Positions 48,027 through 60,365 of a stretch of DNA of 64,000 nucleotides are shown here, one piece after another. Numbering within the stretch: the first letter of the stretch is position 1; each line of letters opens with the position of its first letter. This DNA comes from Octopus vulgaris (taxonomy: Eukaryota), in NCBI GenBank assembly GCA_951406725.2, contig OX597831.1:65348001-65412000 (forward strand), read 5' to 3'. The notes below the pieces were generated by a model. That model did not search any database, was not told the origin of the DNA, and saw nothing but the letters and a program-made list of their open reading frames with translations. A program made the translations under genes and the position numbers.

Positions 48027-48174
48027 CATTATGTGTGTGTCCAGCCCGCAGCTTCCTTTCTTTGTAAGGCCCTTGTGGCCAATTAAATGAATAAATGAAT
48101 AAAAGATACTTGTTCTCATCCCTAAAGCAGTAATATTAACAAATTAAAGTTTCTTGGTTTACTTTACCAAATAT

Positions 48175-48471
48175 TCTATTGTGTCTGGGGAGAGCCATTC
48201 TCTTTTAGTGCCTTAATTATTTAACACATTCACCGGTAAAATTTCCACTTATTTCTTATTTTTATTTTCTAAAATTTTCGTTGCATCTTGCAACCTTTTC
48301 AATAGTCTTGACTCTAGAAAATAAAAATAAGAAATAAGTGGAAATTTTACCGGTGAGTGTGTTAAATAATAAGGCACTAAAAGAGAATGACTCTCCCCAG
48401 ACACAACAGAATATGCTTCAACACACAAACTCATATAAAGAATCTTGCAAACCAAATCCAAAAACGAAATA
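48175..48471. mobile_element. Fold-back non-autonomous element (PLE pLTR-like) with 10-bp TSD
   Basis: ~100-bp inverted arms 48171-48271 and 48315-48414; TACCAAATAT at 48165-48174 and 48472-48481. Confidence 0.75.
48269..48305 (-). ncRNA. Minimal hammerhead-like motif, U3:A8 variant
   Basis: CUA-UUGAAAA-g-GUUGCA aga UGCAAC-GAA-AAUU-U-UAG. Confidence 0.55.
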
Positions 48472-48628
48472 TACCAAATATGCTAGTAGCAACTTTATTT
48501 CTACATCTTCATACGGCAGACATCCTGAGTAATTGTCTCCTGTCATTCTACTATATAGTTATTACCACTTCTTACCTTTTCCTAGTATTCACAACAAGAC
48601 TGGCTTTGTCATTTGAGAATTTAGTTAC

Positions 48629-48840
48629 GGAGATGTACTTGCATAGCGAGTGACTTGATCTGAGATCATGTGCTGGAACGAAAACAATTGCAGCGTGGAA
48701 GGTGTTTGTAAGCCATTTAAGAAACACACAAAAGCCTTCGATTCACTTCAACATTTAAATTTAATTTGTCAAAATATTTTCGTCGCTTTGAGACCGCGAC
48801 CTGTTCACAAAGTTTTGTCAGTGAACAGGTCGCGGTCTCA
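48629..48840. mobile_element. 212-bp non-autonomous element with inverted end and 11-bp TSD (PLE pLTR-like)
   Basis: TSD AATTTAGTTAC at 48618-48628 and 48841-48851; perfect 22-bp inverted repeat 48787-48808 / 48821-48842. Confidence 0.8.
48765..48808 (-). ncRNA. Minimal hammerhead-like motif, G3:C8 variant (stem I 5' strand displaced to the inverted arm)
   Basis: GUGAACA-g-GUCGC ggucucaaa GCGAC-GAA-AAUAUU-U-UGACAAA; the inverted arm shows UUUGUCA directly before GUGAACA. Confidence 0.55.
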
Positions 48841-49084
48841 AATTTAGTTACATTCTGTATAAATTTTTGGTGCAGTTTTTACTGCTAAAAGAGTCAAAGC
48901 TGGCCTAAGTCAAAGTAGCTGCTGGTGTACAAATTGGAGAGTTAATAATTTAGAATCTAATCACCAGTTCTTCCAGACAAAATTCTCCTCACCAGAGACC
49001 ATAAATTTAAAATTTGTCATTATCATGCCTACCTCTGGCTCTTTTGTTTCTAATTGTTCTCATTATTCATTTAGTCTTTTCTTT

Positions 49085-49680
49085 CATTTGTTTCAGTCAT
49101 TTGACTTGGACCAGGCTGGGATACCGACCCGGAGGGTTGACTCCGGTCCATATCTTAAGTTCTTAAGTCTGGTACTTAATATATCGGTTTCCTTTTGCTG
49201 AAGTACTAAGTTTCAGGTTCATAAAGAAACCAAACACCAACTTAAATGGAAAGAAGCAAGCATGTGTGCATGTGTATGTGCATATGTGTCTGTGTATATG
49301 TGTGTATGTGTGTGTATGCACACACACATGCACACACACACAAACACACAAACAGACAAACACACACACACAAACACACAAACACACACACACACACACA
49401 CACTCACACACACAAACACACACACACAAACACACACACACATAAACACACAAACACACACACAAACACACACACACACACACACACACACACACACACA
49501 CACACACACACACATACATACAAATAGGCTTCTGTGCAATATCCGTTTATCAAATCCTCTCACTAGGCATTGGTTAGCCTGAGGCTATATTAGATGACAT
49601 TTGCTGAAAGTCCAGTTGAGTAGAACTGAACCCAAAACCTCATGATTGCCAAGTGAACTTCTCAGCCAGATGGCCACGCC
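49085..49680 (-). mobile_element. Old tRNA-derived SINE with expanded internal (CA)n
   Basis: Diverged head and tail motifs flanking a ~250-bp CA/TG tract. Confidence 0.7.
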
Positions 49681-50068
49681 TGTGTATTATCAGATTACAT
49701 TTCCAATCCAGGCAAATGGCACCAGAATTAGTCTCCTTATGTTTACCAACAGTCTTCCGATTCGATGGAATATAGAATTGAAACACAATTATTGTAACTT
49801 GATGACACGTCATCACCATCATCACCATTTAACATCCACTTTTCCATGCTTGCATGGATTGGATGTTCCATGGCTGGATGCACTTCCTGTCACCAGCCCA
49901 TAGCCATTCCTGTGCAAGGTAACATTTTCTCATGTTTTTCATGGAACACTGGAAACAATTGCTTGTACGATGATGAGACTCGTTTACAGCCATCACATGA
50001 TGTCTTGACAGTGGTAAATTCGAACATACATACGTGCACAGAAAGATACATTCACCCTCTTACACACA

Positions 50069-50470
50069 TCTATCTATCTGTCTGTCTGTCTGCTGGCCTA
50101 TCTATCTACCTATCTATCTATCTATCTATCTATCTATCTATCTATCTATCTATCTAATCTATCTATCTATCTATCTATCTATCTATCTATCTATCTATCT
50201 ATCTATCTATCTATCTATCTATCTATCTATCTATCTATCTATCTATCTATCTATCTATCTATCTATCTATCTATCTATCTATCTATCTGTCTATCTATCT
50301 AATCTATCTGTCTATCTATCAATCTATCTATCTATCTATCTATCAATCTATCTATCTATCTATCTATCTATCTATCTATCTATCTATCTATCTATCTATC
50401 TATCTATCTATCTATCTATCTATCTATCTATCTCTCTCTCTCTCTCTCTCTCTCTCTCTCTCTATCTATC
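50069..50470. repeat. (TATC)n microsatellite grading into (TC)n
   Basis: Seen directly in the sequence. Confidence 0.97.
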
Positions 50471-57840: not shown

Positions 57841-57844
57841 ATTA

Positions 57845-58410
57845 TCATCATCATCATCATCATCATCATCAACATCGTTTAATGTCTGCTTTCCATGCTA
57901 GCATGGGTTGCATGGTTCAACTGGGGTCTTGGAAGCCAGAAAGCTGCACCAGGCCCAGTCTTATCTAGCAGTGTTTCTACAGCTGGATGCCCTTCTTAAC
58001 ACTAACCACTCCATGAGTGTAGTGGGTGCTTTTTACGTGCCACCAGCACAGGTGCCAGACGAGGCTGGCAAACGGCCACGACCGGATGGTGCTTTTTACG
58101 TGCCACCGGCATGGAGGCCAGGCGAGGCTGGCAACGGTCACAATCGGATGGTGCTTTTTACGTGCCATCGACACGGAGGCCAGTTGGGGTGGCGCTGGCA
58201 ACAGCCACGTTTGGATGGTTCTCTTATGTGCCACCGGCACTGGTATCACAACTACAATTTCCATTGATGTTGATCGATTTCGATTTTGATTTTGATTTTC
58301 ACTTGCCTCAACAGGTCTTCACAAGTAAAGTTTTGTGTCCCAAGAAGGAAAGGTATGCATAAGTGGACTGGCTACATCCCAGTTAGAGGCCACGGGTTAT
58401 GGTCTCATGT
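57845..58410 (-). mobile_element. RTE-tail SINE, long copy with unexpanded subrepeats
   Basis: Has 3-4 diverged ~63-bp subrepeats plus the internal domain seen at 17405-18690. Confidence 0.85.
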
Positions 58411-58849
58411 ATTCGATTATTTTGCTGTGACTGTTTAATGTAAAGACAACTCTAGCTAACCCCATTCAACTGGTACAGTGGGAAAACATCAACATGATTG
58501 CGAGAACTCAATATATTTAGTAGGACACCACTTTATGTATGCATATAATCTGATGTGACCCAGACTGCACTGATTAATGCAACACGACTGGATGCACAAC
58601 ATCCCACCTATAAATAACAGTCGCAGGAAGAGTTGAAACAATCGTCGTACTAAATAAAGACTAATGCCAAATCCATCTTCTGCTTCAATTATTGCTAATT
58701 ATCTATCTGTCTGTTTGTCTATCTATCTAAATATATATATGTATATTACATGTGTGTGTGTGTGTGTGTGTGTGTGTGTGTGTGTGTGTGTGTGTGTGTG
58801 TGTGCATGTGTGTGTGTGTGTGTGTGTGTGTATGTCATGTCCCTGGCCT

Positions 58850-59300
58850 GCCATGTGTGGCACCTGAAAGATCAAGGGACCCCGTGTGACATCAGGTGGA
58901 ATTTAATTGATTATTTGGGCCCATATATTAATGGAGGTGGTTATTGCAAGATCTGCATTGAGGAGAGAACCAAAATTCTTAAAGACTATAAGAAGCCTGG
59001 CACATTAAACAACCGTAAAGAAGCGTTTTCTAAATGTATCTACTTCAAATGTTACTAGAAAATTGTATCTCCCTGTTTGCATGTTAGGCTTCTCCAAGTC
59101 TATAAAGGTTTTTTTTCCCTCTGATTAAGGAGAAATAACCTGTCGTCATTAACGTTTTTTCTTACTCTTTGAGCTCTGAGTGTTTCTTCACATCTGCGAC
59201 GTTGATATTTAAAAATCTTGTATTCATATGAGTCTGATGAGCTGTCCACAAGGCTTTGACTTTGTGGGTGGGAAACCTTGGGTAACTCTATATAAAATTT
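58850..59300 (+). mobile_element. Penelope-like element 3' end (endonuclease C-terminus + pLTR)
   Basis: WHLKDQG...IRWNLI...PY...CKICIEERTKIL...TLNNRKEAFSKC matches the PLE ORF C-terminus; followed by a hammerhead motif. Confidence 0.8.
59230..59288 (+). ncRNA. Type I hammerhead motif, canonical C3:G8 core (degenerate at 11.1)
   Basis: GAGU-CUGAUGA-g-[12-bp stem II]-GAA-ACCuugGGU-A-ACUC; GUA cleavage triplet at 59282-59284. Confidence 0.75.
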
Positions 59301-59514
59301 TGTATATATATATACATACATATATATATATATATATATATATATATATATATATATATATATATAGTTTGAATCTACAGAAAACAAAACGAAGACAGGT
59401 GAAGGAACAACAAGCTGGTGTATTAGTTTGACACTCGGGAAGAATGGAAAGGCAGGTACTGTTTATATGTTGGACTGGGGTTTTAAGAGAATACACTGTA
59501 TAAAAGAGTGCAAT

Positions 59515-59915
59515 AATGATGATCGTTGCCAGAGCGGCTAACTGGCTTCCGTGCCGGTGGCATGTAGGAGGCACCATTCGAGTGGGATCGTTATCAGCAT
59601 CGTCTTACTGGCACCTGTGCCGTTGGCATGTGTAAAATATTCGAGCGAGGTCATTGTCAGTACCACATGTCTGGCCCCCAAAATTCGAGCAAGGTTGTTG
59701 CCAGTACCGCCTGACTGGCCCCCGTGCCGGTGGCACGTAAAAGCACCCACTACACTCTCGGGGTGGTTGGCGTTAGGAAGGGCATCCAGCTGTAGAAATT
59801 CTGCCAGATCAAGACTGGAGCTTGGTGCAGCCATCTGGTTTGCCAGCCCACAGTCAAACCGTCCAACCCATGCTAGCATGGGAAGCGGACGTTAAACGAT
59901 GATGATGATGATGAT
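59515..59915 (+). mobile_element. RTE-tail SINE (subfamily of 32620-33115)
   Basis: Shared body and (GAT)n tail. Confidence 0.85.
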
Positions 59916-59961
59916 ATTCTGAGCTGAAACTTTAAATAAATATATATATATATATATATAT

Positions 59962-60365
59962 ACTGCATCGACAACAGATTGCATTCCCAGAATATAGAAT
60001 GATACCTTTTAGTGAGCACATTGAGAAATGCGCAAAGCAACTACTGCCACAATTTTTAATCTTCCCATTTTACCAATGTGCTTTCGGATCATCAACACAA
60101 ATGAGACTGAACAAGGAAACATTCTTCATTGAAAAGTACAAACCCAGACTCAACCATCCGAACATACTGACACAGAGAAATTAACAAGGAAATGGGAAAA
60201 AAATTTTTTAAGCGATTATCTCCCCTACACCGGAAAAAATCACTCACTACCTCCCCTTATTTAGAAATCTCCTGGAAATAAAAACAACGATAAATCCATG
60301 CAATATAAACATAACGTCACAAGAAATTTGAAAAGCTACACGCGAAACCGGTAATTTCTTTAAAA
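59962..60365 (+). mobile_element. Penelope-like element 3' end, second family
   Basis: FSEHIEKCA...FLIFPFYQ...RLNKETFFIEKYKPRLN resembles the GIY-YIG C-terminus; followed by a hammerhead motif. Confidence 0.75.
60321..60360 (+). ncRNA. Intact minimal type I hammerhead motif, U3:A8 variant
   Basis: AAGAAAU-UUGAAAA-GC uacac GC-GAA-ACCGGU-A-AUUUCUU: perfect 7-bp stem I, palindromic stem III, GUA triplet. Confidence 0.8.

What the first reader, a model, noticed from the sequence alone, without database searches (positions are those of the whole stretch)
48165..60365. Four hammerhead-like motifs within 12 kb show covariation of the catalytic 3:8 pair (C:G, G:C, U:A, U:A)
Seen: four unrelated repeats carry the type I hammerhead topology (stem I - N3UGAN7N8A - stem II - GAAA - tiny, mostly palindromic stem III - UH - stem I). 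Their cores read CUGAUGA (59234), UUGAAAA (60328), UUGAAAA (48302, minus) and GUGAACA (48808, minus), so positions 3 and 8 always remain complementary. Established: C3-G8 is a tertiary pair that tolerates compensatory swaps, and Penelope-like elements carry minimal hammerheads thought to work as dimers through a palindromic stem III. Inference: this genome hosts several PLE-dependent families with non-canonical hammerheads that a CUGANGA-only search would miss, including small non-autonomous elements.
Basis: partly seen in the sequence, partly recalled or inferred. Interest (0 to 1): 0.8.

Follow-up and report, generated by a model that had tools for sequence, protein, structure and literature searches.

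The report
Penelope hammerheads swap their core pair
Four small predicted self-cutting RNA motifs here are the end repeats of Penelope-type jumping genes, likely in an octopus, and across related families one paired position of the catalytic core takes all four possible complementary forms, which suggests the motif is kept functional, although cutting is untested.

Summary
All four motifs lie at the stated coordinates and belong to repeat families. They are minimal type I hammerheads in pseudo-LTRs (pLTRs) of Penelope-like elements (PLEs). 60328 (U3:A8) ends a young ~4-kb RT+GIY-YIG element. 59234 (C3:G8) is a decayed copy behind a likely GIY-YIG end. 48302 (U3:A8) and 48808 (G3:C8) are not unrelated: they are homologous ~200-nt pLTR copies. 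I found a 4.26-kb autonomous element with the G3:C8 motif in both pLTRs, so they are mainly solo pLTRs, not separate non-autonomous families. Genome-wide, on one scaffold, A3 goes with U8 in 1207 of 1303 matches and U3 with A8 in 95 of the first 100 listed; A:U and G:C subfamilies coexist in one alignable lineage. Exceptions exist (a young C3·A8 tandem array), and the window's 48808 copy has lost stem I. The class, U3:A8, the extra base after A9 and laboratory G3:C8 rescue are published; natural G3:C8 and A3:U8 I did not find in the papers I could read (Lünse 2017 unavailable). This scan noted both variants before on other DNA. Cleavage is untested. New variant of a known kind.

The parts
58830..59303 (+). 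Family M1: 5'-truncated PLE 3' end (C-terminus of a likely GIY-YIG endonuclease, then pLTR)
   Evidence: 81-84% to other copies; variable 5' and sharp 3' ends; upstream peptide of copy L105 resembles GIY-YIG clusters by features, score 0.95, no Pfam hit
59226..59293 (+). M1 hammerhead, C3:G8 (core 59234-59240, GAAA 59272-59275, predicted cut after 59284); decayed copy
59962..60548 (+). Family M2: 3' end of a young ~4-kb autonomous PLE (endonuclease C-terminus 59963-60184, pLTR, tail), between (TA)n runs
60321..60360 (+). M2 hammerhead, U3:A8; 7-bp stem I, 2-bp stem II, palindromic stem III, predicted cut after 60353
   Evidence: identical in 30 of 30 loci, which were picked as top 100% hits
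48171..48316 (-). Family M3 pLTR copy, reference positions 1-144 (short 3' end)
48269..48305 (-). M3 hammerhead, U3:A8, extra G after A9, 3-bp stem I, predicted cut after 48272
48315..48470 (+). Inverted M3 copy, positions 46-200 (long 3' end with tail); holds the ORF start at 48387
48165..48174 (+). 10-bp target-site duplication of the M3 insertion (partner at 48472-48481)
48625..48809 (-). Family M4 pLTR copy, positions 24-209; holds the ORF start at 48716
   Evidence: 91% to the pLTRs of autonomous element L367
48765..48808 (-). M4 hammerhead, G3:C8, extra G after A9, 5-bp stem II, palindromic stem III, predicted cut after 48772; 5' arm of stem I lost in this copy
48806..48842 (+). Short inverted M4 copy (positions 10-46)
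48618..48628 (+). 11-bp target-site duplication of the M4 insertion (partner at 48841-48851)

Best explanation
The four motifs are minimal type I hammerheads in the pseudo-LTRs of Penelope-like retrotransposons, and the 3:8 core pair has swapped among C:G, U:A, G:C and A:U between families, likely because selection on active elements keeps a slowly cutting, probably dimer- or protein-assisted ribozyme. Shown: M2 and M4 have full-length parents with RT, a CxxxCxxC-type linker and GIY-YIG, with the motif in both pLTRs; M3 is a sister family of M4; insertions carry target-site duplications, inverted copies and a tail on one arm only. Inferred: the very abundant ~200-nt M3/M4 copies are solo pLTRs, made when reverse transcription starts at one of two internal sites in the first pLTR of an uncut transcript and runs to its 5' end. 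In the M4 parent the predicted cut lies between that 5' end and the start codon and upstream of the priming sites, so cutting would remove a transcript from translation and copying rather than being a needed step. The genomic copies in this window are mostly decaying and the 48808 copy cannot fold.
For: M2 parent: two motifs 3993 and 3907 nt apart (L121, L123), RVT_1 above cut-off and weak GIY-YIG. M4 parent L367: pLTRs at 220-425 and 4481-4682, the same G3:C8 motif in both, ORF starting inside the pLTR; L366 has a 1025-aa open frame with GIY-YIG above cut-off that aligns with the M2 RT-EN (21%, E 1e-10). M3 long form: shared non-coding upstream in 7 loci and in one (L198) a GIY-YIG end 48% identical to the M4 parent's. 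Target-site duplications in 25 of 58 M3 and 14 of 53 M4 insertions (background 1 of 58, 0 of 53); one long plus one short 3' end in 35 of 37 and 28 of 29 inverted pairs, never two long. Random 1.2-Mb sample: 19 of 23 hits Watson-Crick, all four pair types, about 1 hit per shuffle. Genome-wide scaffold counts. A:U and G:C subfamilies in one DNA-alignable cluster behind the same type of endonuclease. 35 of 62 M3 and 34 of 52 M4 segments start upstream of the predicted cut; only 4 and 3 start within 3 nt of it. Literature: PMC4209133, PMC11167929, PMC8557442.
Against: No cleavage data. Stems are very weak (M2 stem II 2 bp, M3 stem I 3 bp). Within families the core is only slightly more conserved than the rest (M4 97.6% vs 95.7%, M3 96.7% vs 93.4%). 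A 360-nt tandem array with three near-identical units carries C3.A8, and 30 of the first 100 C3 matches have A8. The M4 parent found belongs to a minor subfamily (median 89% to the short copies, different loop II), so the direct source of most short copies is not in hand. The M3-endonuclease link rests on one locus; the M1 endonuclease has no Pfam hit. The endonuclease tree is poorly supported (clade with A:U and G:C: bootstrap 69).
Confidence: 0.78

Rival explanations
1. The motif keeps the hammerhead fold (including the 3:8 pair) as a structural or protein-binding element and no longer cuts at a meaningful rate.
For: Most copies come from uncut RNA; in a lizard PLE, catalytic mutants did not affect insertion in vitro and no RNA ends were seen at the site (PMC11167929); a C3.A8 array has amplified; stems are minimal.
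Against: U4, G5, A6, A9, G12-A14, A15.1-U16.1 and H17 recur with the swapped pair in families found without that constraint on position 8; the 3:8 pair is a feature of the catalytic conformation (PMC3884650 passages). The fixed letters were part of my search patterns, so their conservation is partly by construction.
Confidence: 0.15
2. M3 and M4 short copies are true non-autonomous elements with their own masters, mobilised by PLE proteins.
For: They far outnumber long copies (12 and 9 of 120 random 10-kb stretches; none of the top 150 peptide hits had a PLE-length frame); the commonest short-copy loop II differs from that of the parent found.
Against: They end inside the ORF of an autonomous element and that ORF runs on in other loci; no tandem arrays of the short unit as the rule; long forms with upstream 3' UTR exist.
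Confidence: 0.2
3. The fixed 5' end of the short copies is a splice acceptor (or a stall at the end of the CA-rich tract) rather than a capped transcription start.
For: In the M4 parent the sequence just upstream reads like branch point, pyrimidine tract and YAG (motif recalled); the Drosophila virilis Penelope intron ends at hammerhead helix I (PMC4209133).
Against: Short copies share no upstream exon; 7 of 10 short copies that reach this point (long-form L051 set aside by eye) have G where the parent has C/T, as a copied cap would give (mechanism recalled), and DNA contigs show the same majority letter (table 7). M3 shows no such acceptor.
Confidence: 0.3
4. The motifs are chance matches in AT-rich repeats.
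For: Shuffled windows give up to 2 Watson-Crick hits in the loose scan; Rfam has no hit.
Against: Thousands of genome-wide matches against 0-7 in reversed controls, fixed position in pLTRs, covarying stem I.
Confidence: 0.01

Closest known systems
Minimal hammerheads (min-HHR) of metazoan PLEs, including the U3-A8 variant of Schistosoma mansoni Cercyon elements (Cervera and de la Pena 2014, PMC4209133; read: text parts 1-2 of 4 and a term search of supplement file 2)
   Same: Type I, in pLTRs, G10.1-C11.1, often an extra base after A9, tiny palindromic stem III, short stem I, many solo and inverted copies, U3:A8 variant.
   Different: Here G3:C8 and A3:U8 also occur as family states; stem II can be 2 bp; on the ACCGGU scaffold non-canonical cores far outnumber C3:G8.
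Poseidon element PAc of Anolis carolinensis (Frangieh et al. 2024, PMC11167929; read: parts 1-2 of 4)
   Same: Hammerhead near the ORF start, two internal reverse-transcription start sites that define the tail, uncut RNA as template, C3G/G8C double mutant partly active.
   Different: PAc is natural C3:G8; here G3:C8 is the natural state; M2 and the M4 parent have the linker zinc-finger of Neptune/Nematis-type elements; nothing here is tested in vitro.
Natural core variants of hammerheads (Perreault et al. 2011, PMC3088659; read: section 8 and passages)
   Same: U3-A8 covariation in nature; 2-bp stem II tolerated.
   Different: That section reports only U3-A8 for this pair.
Small PLE-associated hammerhead variants that cleave as dimers (Lunse, Weinberg, Breaker 2017; not held; title seen in reference lists only)
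   Same: By title and recall: reduced stem III, PLE-linked, dimer cleavage.
   Different: Unknown; this paper or its supplements may already list G3:C8 or A3:U8 variants.
Non-LTR retrozymes (PMC7229834 passages; bioRxiv 10.64898/2026.07.22.740005 part 1 of 5)
   Same: Short type I hammerhead elements related to PLE pLTRs.
   Different: Retrozymes are tandem units; M3/M4 are solo or inverted copies that end in a PLE ORF start. The 360-nt array L369 elsewhere in the genome does fit the retrozyme layout.

Membership tests
EN+ Penelope-like element | RT plus C-terminal GIY-YIG endonuclease | tested here: met
   M2: RVT_1 above cut-off, GIY-YIG below cut-off. M4 parent: GIY-YIG above cut-off, RT by alignment to M2, no RVT_1 hit. 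M3: endonuclease end in one locus. M1: inconclusive.
EN+ Penelope-like element | pLTRs from partial tandems, inverted 5'-truncated copy, tail on one end | tested here: met
EN+ Penelope-like element | Variable target-site duplication, AT-rich or microsatellite targets | tested here: met
   25 of 58 and 14 of 53 insertions; not counted for M1, M2
Neptune/Nematis clades | [quoted passage not shown] | tested here: met
   Cysteine motif seen in M2 and M4-parent frames
Neptune/Nematis clades | Placement in an RT tree with reference elements | not tested
   no reference PLE sequences on hand
Minimal type I hammerhead of PLEs | Core N3UGAN7N8A, GAAA, UH with stems I-III | tested here: met
   At family level for all four; not met for the window's 48808 copy (stem I arm lost)
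Minimal type I hammerhead of PLEs | Palindromic stem III allowing a dimer | tested here: met
   Perfect in M2, M3, M4; near-palindrome in M1. Cofolding favours dimers by 3-8 kcal/mol but gives the hammerhead-type dimer only for M2 and an intact M1 copy.
Minimal type I hammerhead of PLEs | Watson-Crick 3:8 pair with compensatory change | tested here: met
   exception
Hammerhead ribozyme | Self-cleavage after H17 | not testable with these tools
   No raw reads; copy 5' ends show no pile-up at the site
Non-LTR retrozyme | Tandem units each with a hammerhead, no ORF | tested here: not met
   M3/M4 are solo or inverted and carry a PLE ORF start
Rfam hammerhead families | Covariance-model match | tested here: not met
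   0 of 61 matches at E<=1

The most novel reading that the evidence does not exclude
Octopus PLEs are a natural saturation experiment on the hammerhead 3:8 pair, with all four Watson-Crick states fixed in active lineages, and the ribozyme is a brake: sitting between the capped start and the start codon and upstream of the priming sites, a slow protein- or dimer-triggered cut uncaps the mRNA and removes it from copying, with the 3:8 identity tuning the rate; tens of thousands of solo pLTRs record the uncut, capped transcripts.
Probability: 0.2. Interest if true: 0.72.

Novelty: new variant of a known kind. Interest (0 to 1): 0.43.

Why it matters
What PLE hammerheads do in vivo is open. Compensatory swaps of a tertiary core pair inside one lineage are good evidence that the active fold is under selection, and a near-intact autonomous element with natural G3:C8, plus sister families with U:A and A:U, gives matched constructs to test it. 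Practically, descriptor searches fixed on CUGANGA would miss most motifs of this scaffold here (about 108 of 7158 matches extrapolate to C3:G8). The solo-pLTR ends give an in vivo parallel to the two internal priming sites shown in vitro for a lizard PLE.

Tried and rejected
Rfam scan: no hammerhead. Fossil evidence of cleavage: 4 of 62 M3 and 3 of 52 M4 segments begin within 3 nt of the predicted cut, near what even truncation would give; rejected as evidence. Within-family conservation of core versus flanks: small difference, uninformative. Sequencing runs: no RNA holder listed; contigs of guessed-RNA runs hold M3 and M4 pieces but cannot show ends, strand or level. First search for the M4 parent with the 31-aa peptide failed: top 150 of 15388 candidates were short copies, and the one 247-aa frame (L298) was read-through into another element. 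Two of three protein-representative hits were repetitive chance matches. Pfam and homologue searches for the M1 endonuclease were blank; the comparison protein L107 has relatives with PF26215/PF28514 but no names. No solved structure matched the M4 parent ORF. Endonuclease tree too weak to count swaps firmly (L308 left out because its upstream hit was an unrelated M2 insertion, rows under 45 aa left out). Paper searches for natural G3-C8 or A3-U8 and for octopus hammerheads and solo pLTR starts found no report; Lunse 2017 was not held and supplement file 1 of PMC4209133 was not searched.
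Full report
Observation. The four cores are at the stated places. I call them M1 (59234+, C3:G8), M2 (60328+, U3:A8), M3 (48302-, U3:A8) and M4 (48808-, G3:C8). A scan of the whole window for the type I topology with any 3 and 8 gave 5 hits at stem I >= 3 bp: M1, M2, M3 and two weak mismatched ones; 40 dinucleotide shuffles averaged 0.7 Watson-Crick and 1.9 mismatched hits. 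M4 fails because this copy has lost the 5' arm of stem I to a short inverted duplication. Rfam returned no hammerhead among 61 matches. The window alone is therefore suggestive, not decisive.

Families. All four are repeats. M2 is identical in 30 of 30 top-scoring loci and ends a young element of about 4 kb: two motifs lie 3993 and 3907 nt apart in L121 and L123 around an ORF1 and an RT-linker-endonuclease frame, with RVT_1 above its cut-off and a weak GIY-YIG match; many copies come as divergent pairs 1-6 kb apart. M1 has variable 5' and sharp 3' ends; most family rows have an 8-bp stem I and G10.1-C11.1 with no extra base, so the window copy is decayed. Its upstream frame resembles GIY-YIG clusters by language-model features but has no Pfam match, so its PLE status is likely, not shown.

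M3 and M4. These are 200 and 209 nt, with 5' ends piling up 14 and about 24 nt before the core and two discrete 3' ends (about 144/200 and 150/209). Inverted pairs carry one long and one short end in 35 of 37 and 28 of 29 cases and never two long ends (half of the loci were picked for having a long end); target-site duplications of 6 nt or more occur in 25 of 58 and 14 of 53 insertions against 1 of 58 and 0 of 53 controls, including both window copies. This is the PLE inverted-copy-plus-tail layout described in PMC8557442 (passages) and matches the two internal priming sites of PMC11167929. The two families are homologous end to end, cores in register (0 of 500 DNA shuffles; peptides 0 of 20000 and 106 of 20000 shuffles for two M4 copies), so U3:A8 versus G3:C8 here is a double change between sister families, not a coincidence of unrelated repeats.

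The parent. The M4 peptide found an Octopus bimaculoides protein that continues past the end of the short copies (two other hits were chance). Searching the genome with it gave loci where the frame runs on. L367 is a 4.26-kb element with M4 pLTRs at 220-425 and 4481-4682, the same G3:C8 motif with a 7-bp stem I in both, and an ORF that starts inside the pLTR; L366 holds a 1025-aa open frame, a CA-rich 3' UTR and the pLTR. That frame has GIY-YIG above cut-off and aligns with the M2 RT and endonuclease. L366-L368 are 97-99% alike but a median 89% to the short copies and have a minority loop II, so they are a related, younger subfamily rather than the proven source of most short copies. M3 has a long form with at least 430 nt of shared CA-rich upstream sequence in 7 loci, preceded in L198 by an endonuclease end 48% identical to the M4 parent's. 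M3 and M4 are thus mainly solo pLTRs of autonomous PLEs. They lie in 12 and 9 of 120 random 10-kb stretches, which extrapolates roughly to 2-3 x 10^4 insertions each.

Covariation. In a random 1.2-Mb sample (120 stretches from contigs 1-20) the scan gave 23 hits with a palindromic stem III: 8 C:G, 3 G:C, 6 U:A, 2 A:U, 1 U.G and 3 A.G, the last being overlapping parses of one site; shuffles gave about 1 hit. Two further hits with non-palindromic stem III (one C.A, one A:U) were dropped before this count. Hits count copies, not families. Genome-wide, on the scaffold N3UGAN7N8AG-N5-20-CGAAACCGGUH: A3 has U8 in 1207 matches and another base in 96 (reversed controls 0 and 5); U3 has 5508 matches, 95 of the first 100 listed with A8; G3 has 167, 66 of the first 100 with C8; C3 has 180, 60 of the first 100 with G8 and 30 with A8. 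The per-100 tallies are hand counts. Many mismatched rows look like single mutants of the abundant families. Clustering 66 loci, A3:U8 and G3:C8 subfamilies fall in one DNA-alignable cluster, and 27 of 66 have upstream homology to the M2 endonuclease region (one of these, L308, is an unrelated insertion). On a 28-row alignment 3:8 is G:C 15, A:U 9, U:A 1, G.U 1, unpaired 2, all six stem I pairs show double changes, and slid controls fall to 20-39% paired against 89%; rows were picked by patterns that fixed position 3 and, for the A rows, position 8, so this leans towards the structure. An endonuclease tree puts A:U and G:C together in one clade (bootstrap 69), another A:U clade apart (86) and U:A-type families on several other branches: at least two or three swaps, weakly supported.

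Against. A 360-nt tandem array with three near-identical units has C3.A8: mismatch does not prevent amplification there. Within M3 and M4 the core is only 2-3 points more conserved than the rest, as expected of neutrally decaying copies. Stems are minimal. Copy 5' ends show no pile-up at the predicted cut (4 of 62, 3 of 52) and over half span it, so uncut RNA is the usual template. No RNA evidence could be had.

Mechanism. Shown: position in pLTRs, pairing pattern, parents, insertion layout. Inferred: the fold is kept under selection in active masters; cutting is slow and needs a dimer or the element's protein, as reported for other PLEs (PMC4209133; PMC11167929); short copies arise by internal priming in the first pLTR and run to the RNA 5' end. 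In M4, 7 of 10 short copies reaching the fixed end carry G where the parent has C or T, as a copied cap would give (recalled mechanism); the same spot also resembles a splice acceptor, which remains a rival. In the M4 parent the cut site lies between that end and the start codon and upstream of both priming sites, so cutting would act against translation and copying; this brake idea is speculative.

Known versus new. Minimal PLE hammerheads, the extra base after A9, the palindromic stem III and U3-A8 are in PMC4209133 (parts 1-2 of 4 read); natural U3-A8 also in PMC3088659 (section 8); partial rescue by C3G/G8C in a PLE hammerhead in PMC11167929 (parts 1-2 of 4). PMC6765202, PMC3884650, PMC7229834 and PMC10085705 were seen as passages, the 2026 retrozyme preprint as part 1 of 5. 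Searches for natural G3-C8 or A3-U8 and for octopus cases found none, but Lunse et al. 2017 was not held and figure supplements could not be read. Earlier notes of this scan reported the G3:C8 repeat and A3:U8 families on other DNA; a word search for an autonomous parent of the G3:C8 repeat returned nothing. Verdict: real, a new variant of a known kind, interest 0.43.

Noticed in passing
L369 (G000:C4:80857150-80858020): 360-nt head-to-tail array, units 357/360 identical, each with a hammerhead whose 3:8 is C.A; sister arrays elsewhere have C:G and related motifs U:A: a retrozyme-like family with a possible swap intermediate.
   Followed up: partly
G000:C15:42993531 and about 20 other places: A further young PLE-like family with open frames of about 1310 aa, 34% similar to the N-terminus of the M4 parent; its pLTR hammerhead was not examined.
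   Followed up: no
L121, L123: The M2 element has an ORF1 overlapping the RT frame, suggesting a frameshift.
   Followed up: no
L367:197-221: Branch-point, pyrimidine-tract and YAG-like sequence directly at the fixed 5' end of M4 short copies.
   Followed up: partly
window 11924-13619: 63-nt tandem array, 26.9 copies at 98% identity; the same unit recurs in shorter arrays inside a common short repeat at 2286, 18250, 32754, 41440, 58025.
   Followed up: no
window 41677-41798: Near-perfect hairpin formed by two inverted ends of a common short repeat; gives spurious microRNA-family matches.
   Followed up: no
window 34558-35256 (+) and 43451-43816 (-): Mariner-type transposase remnants (family assignment recalled from motifs).
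   Followed up: no
window 53832-54317 (-) and about 36430-36771: CR1/L2-type LINE 3' fragments (assignment recalled).
   Followed up: no
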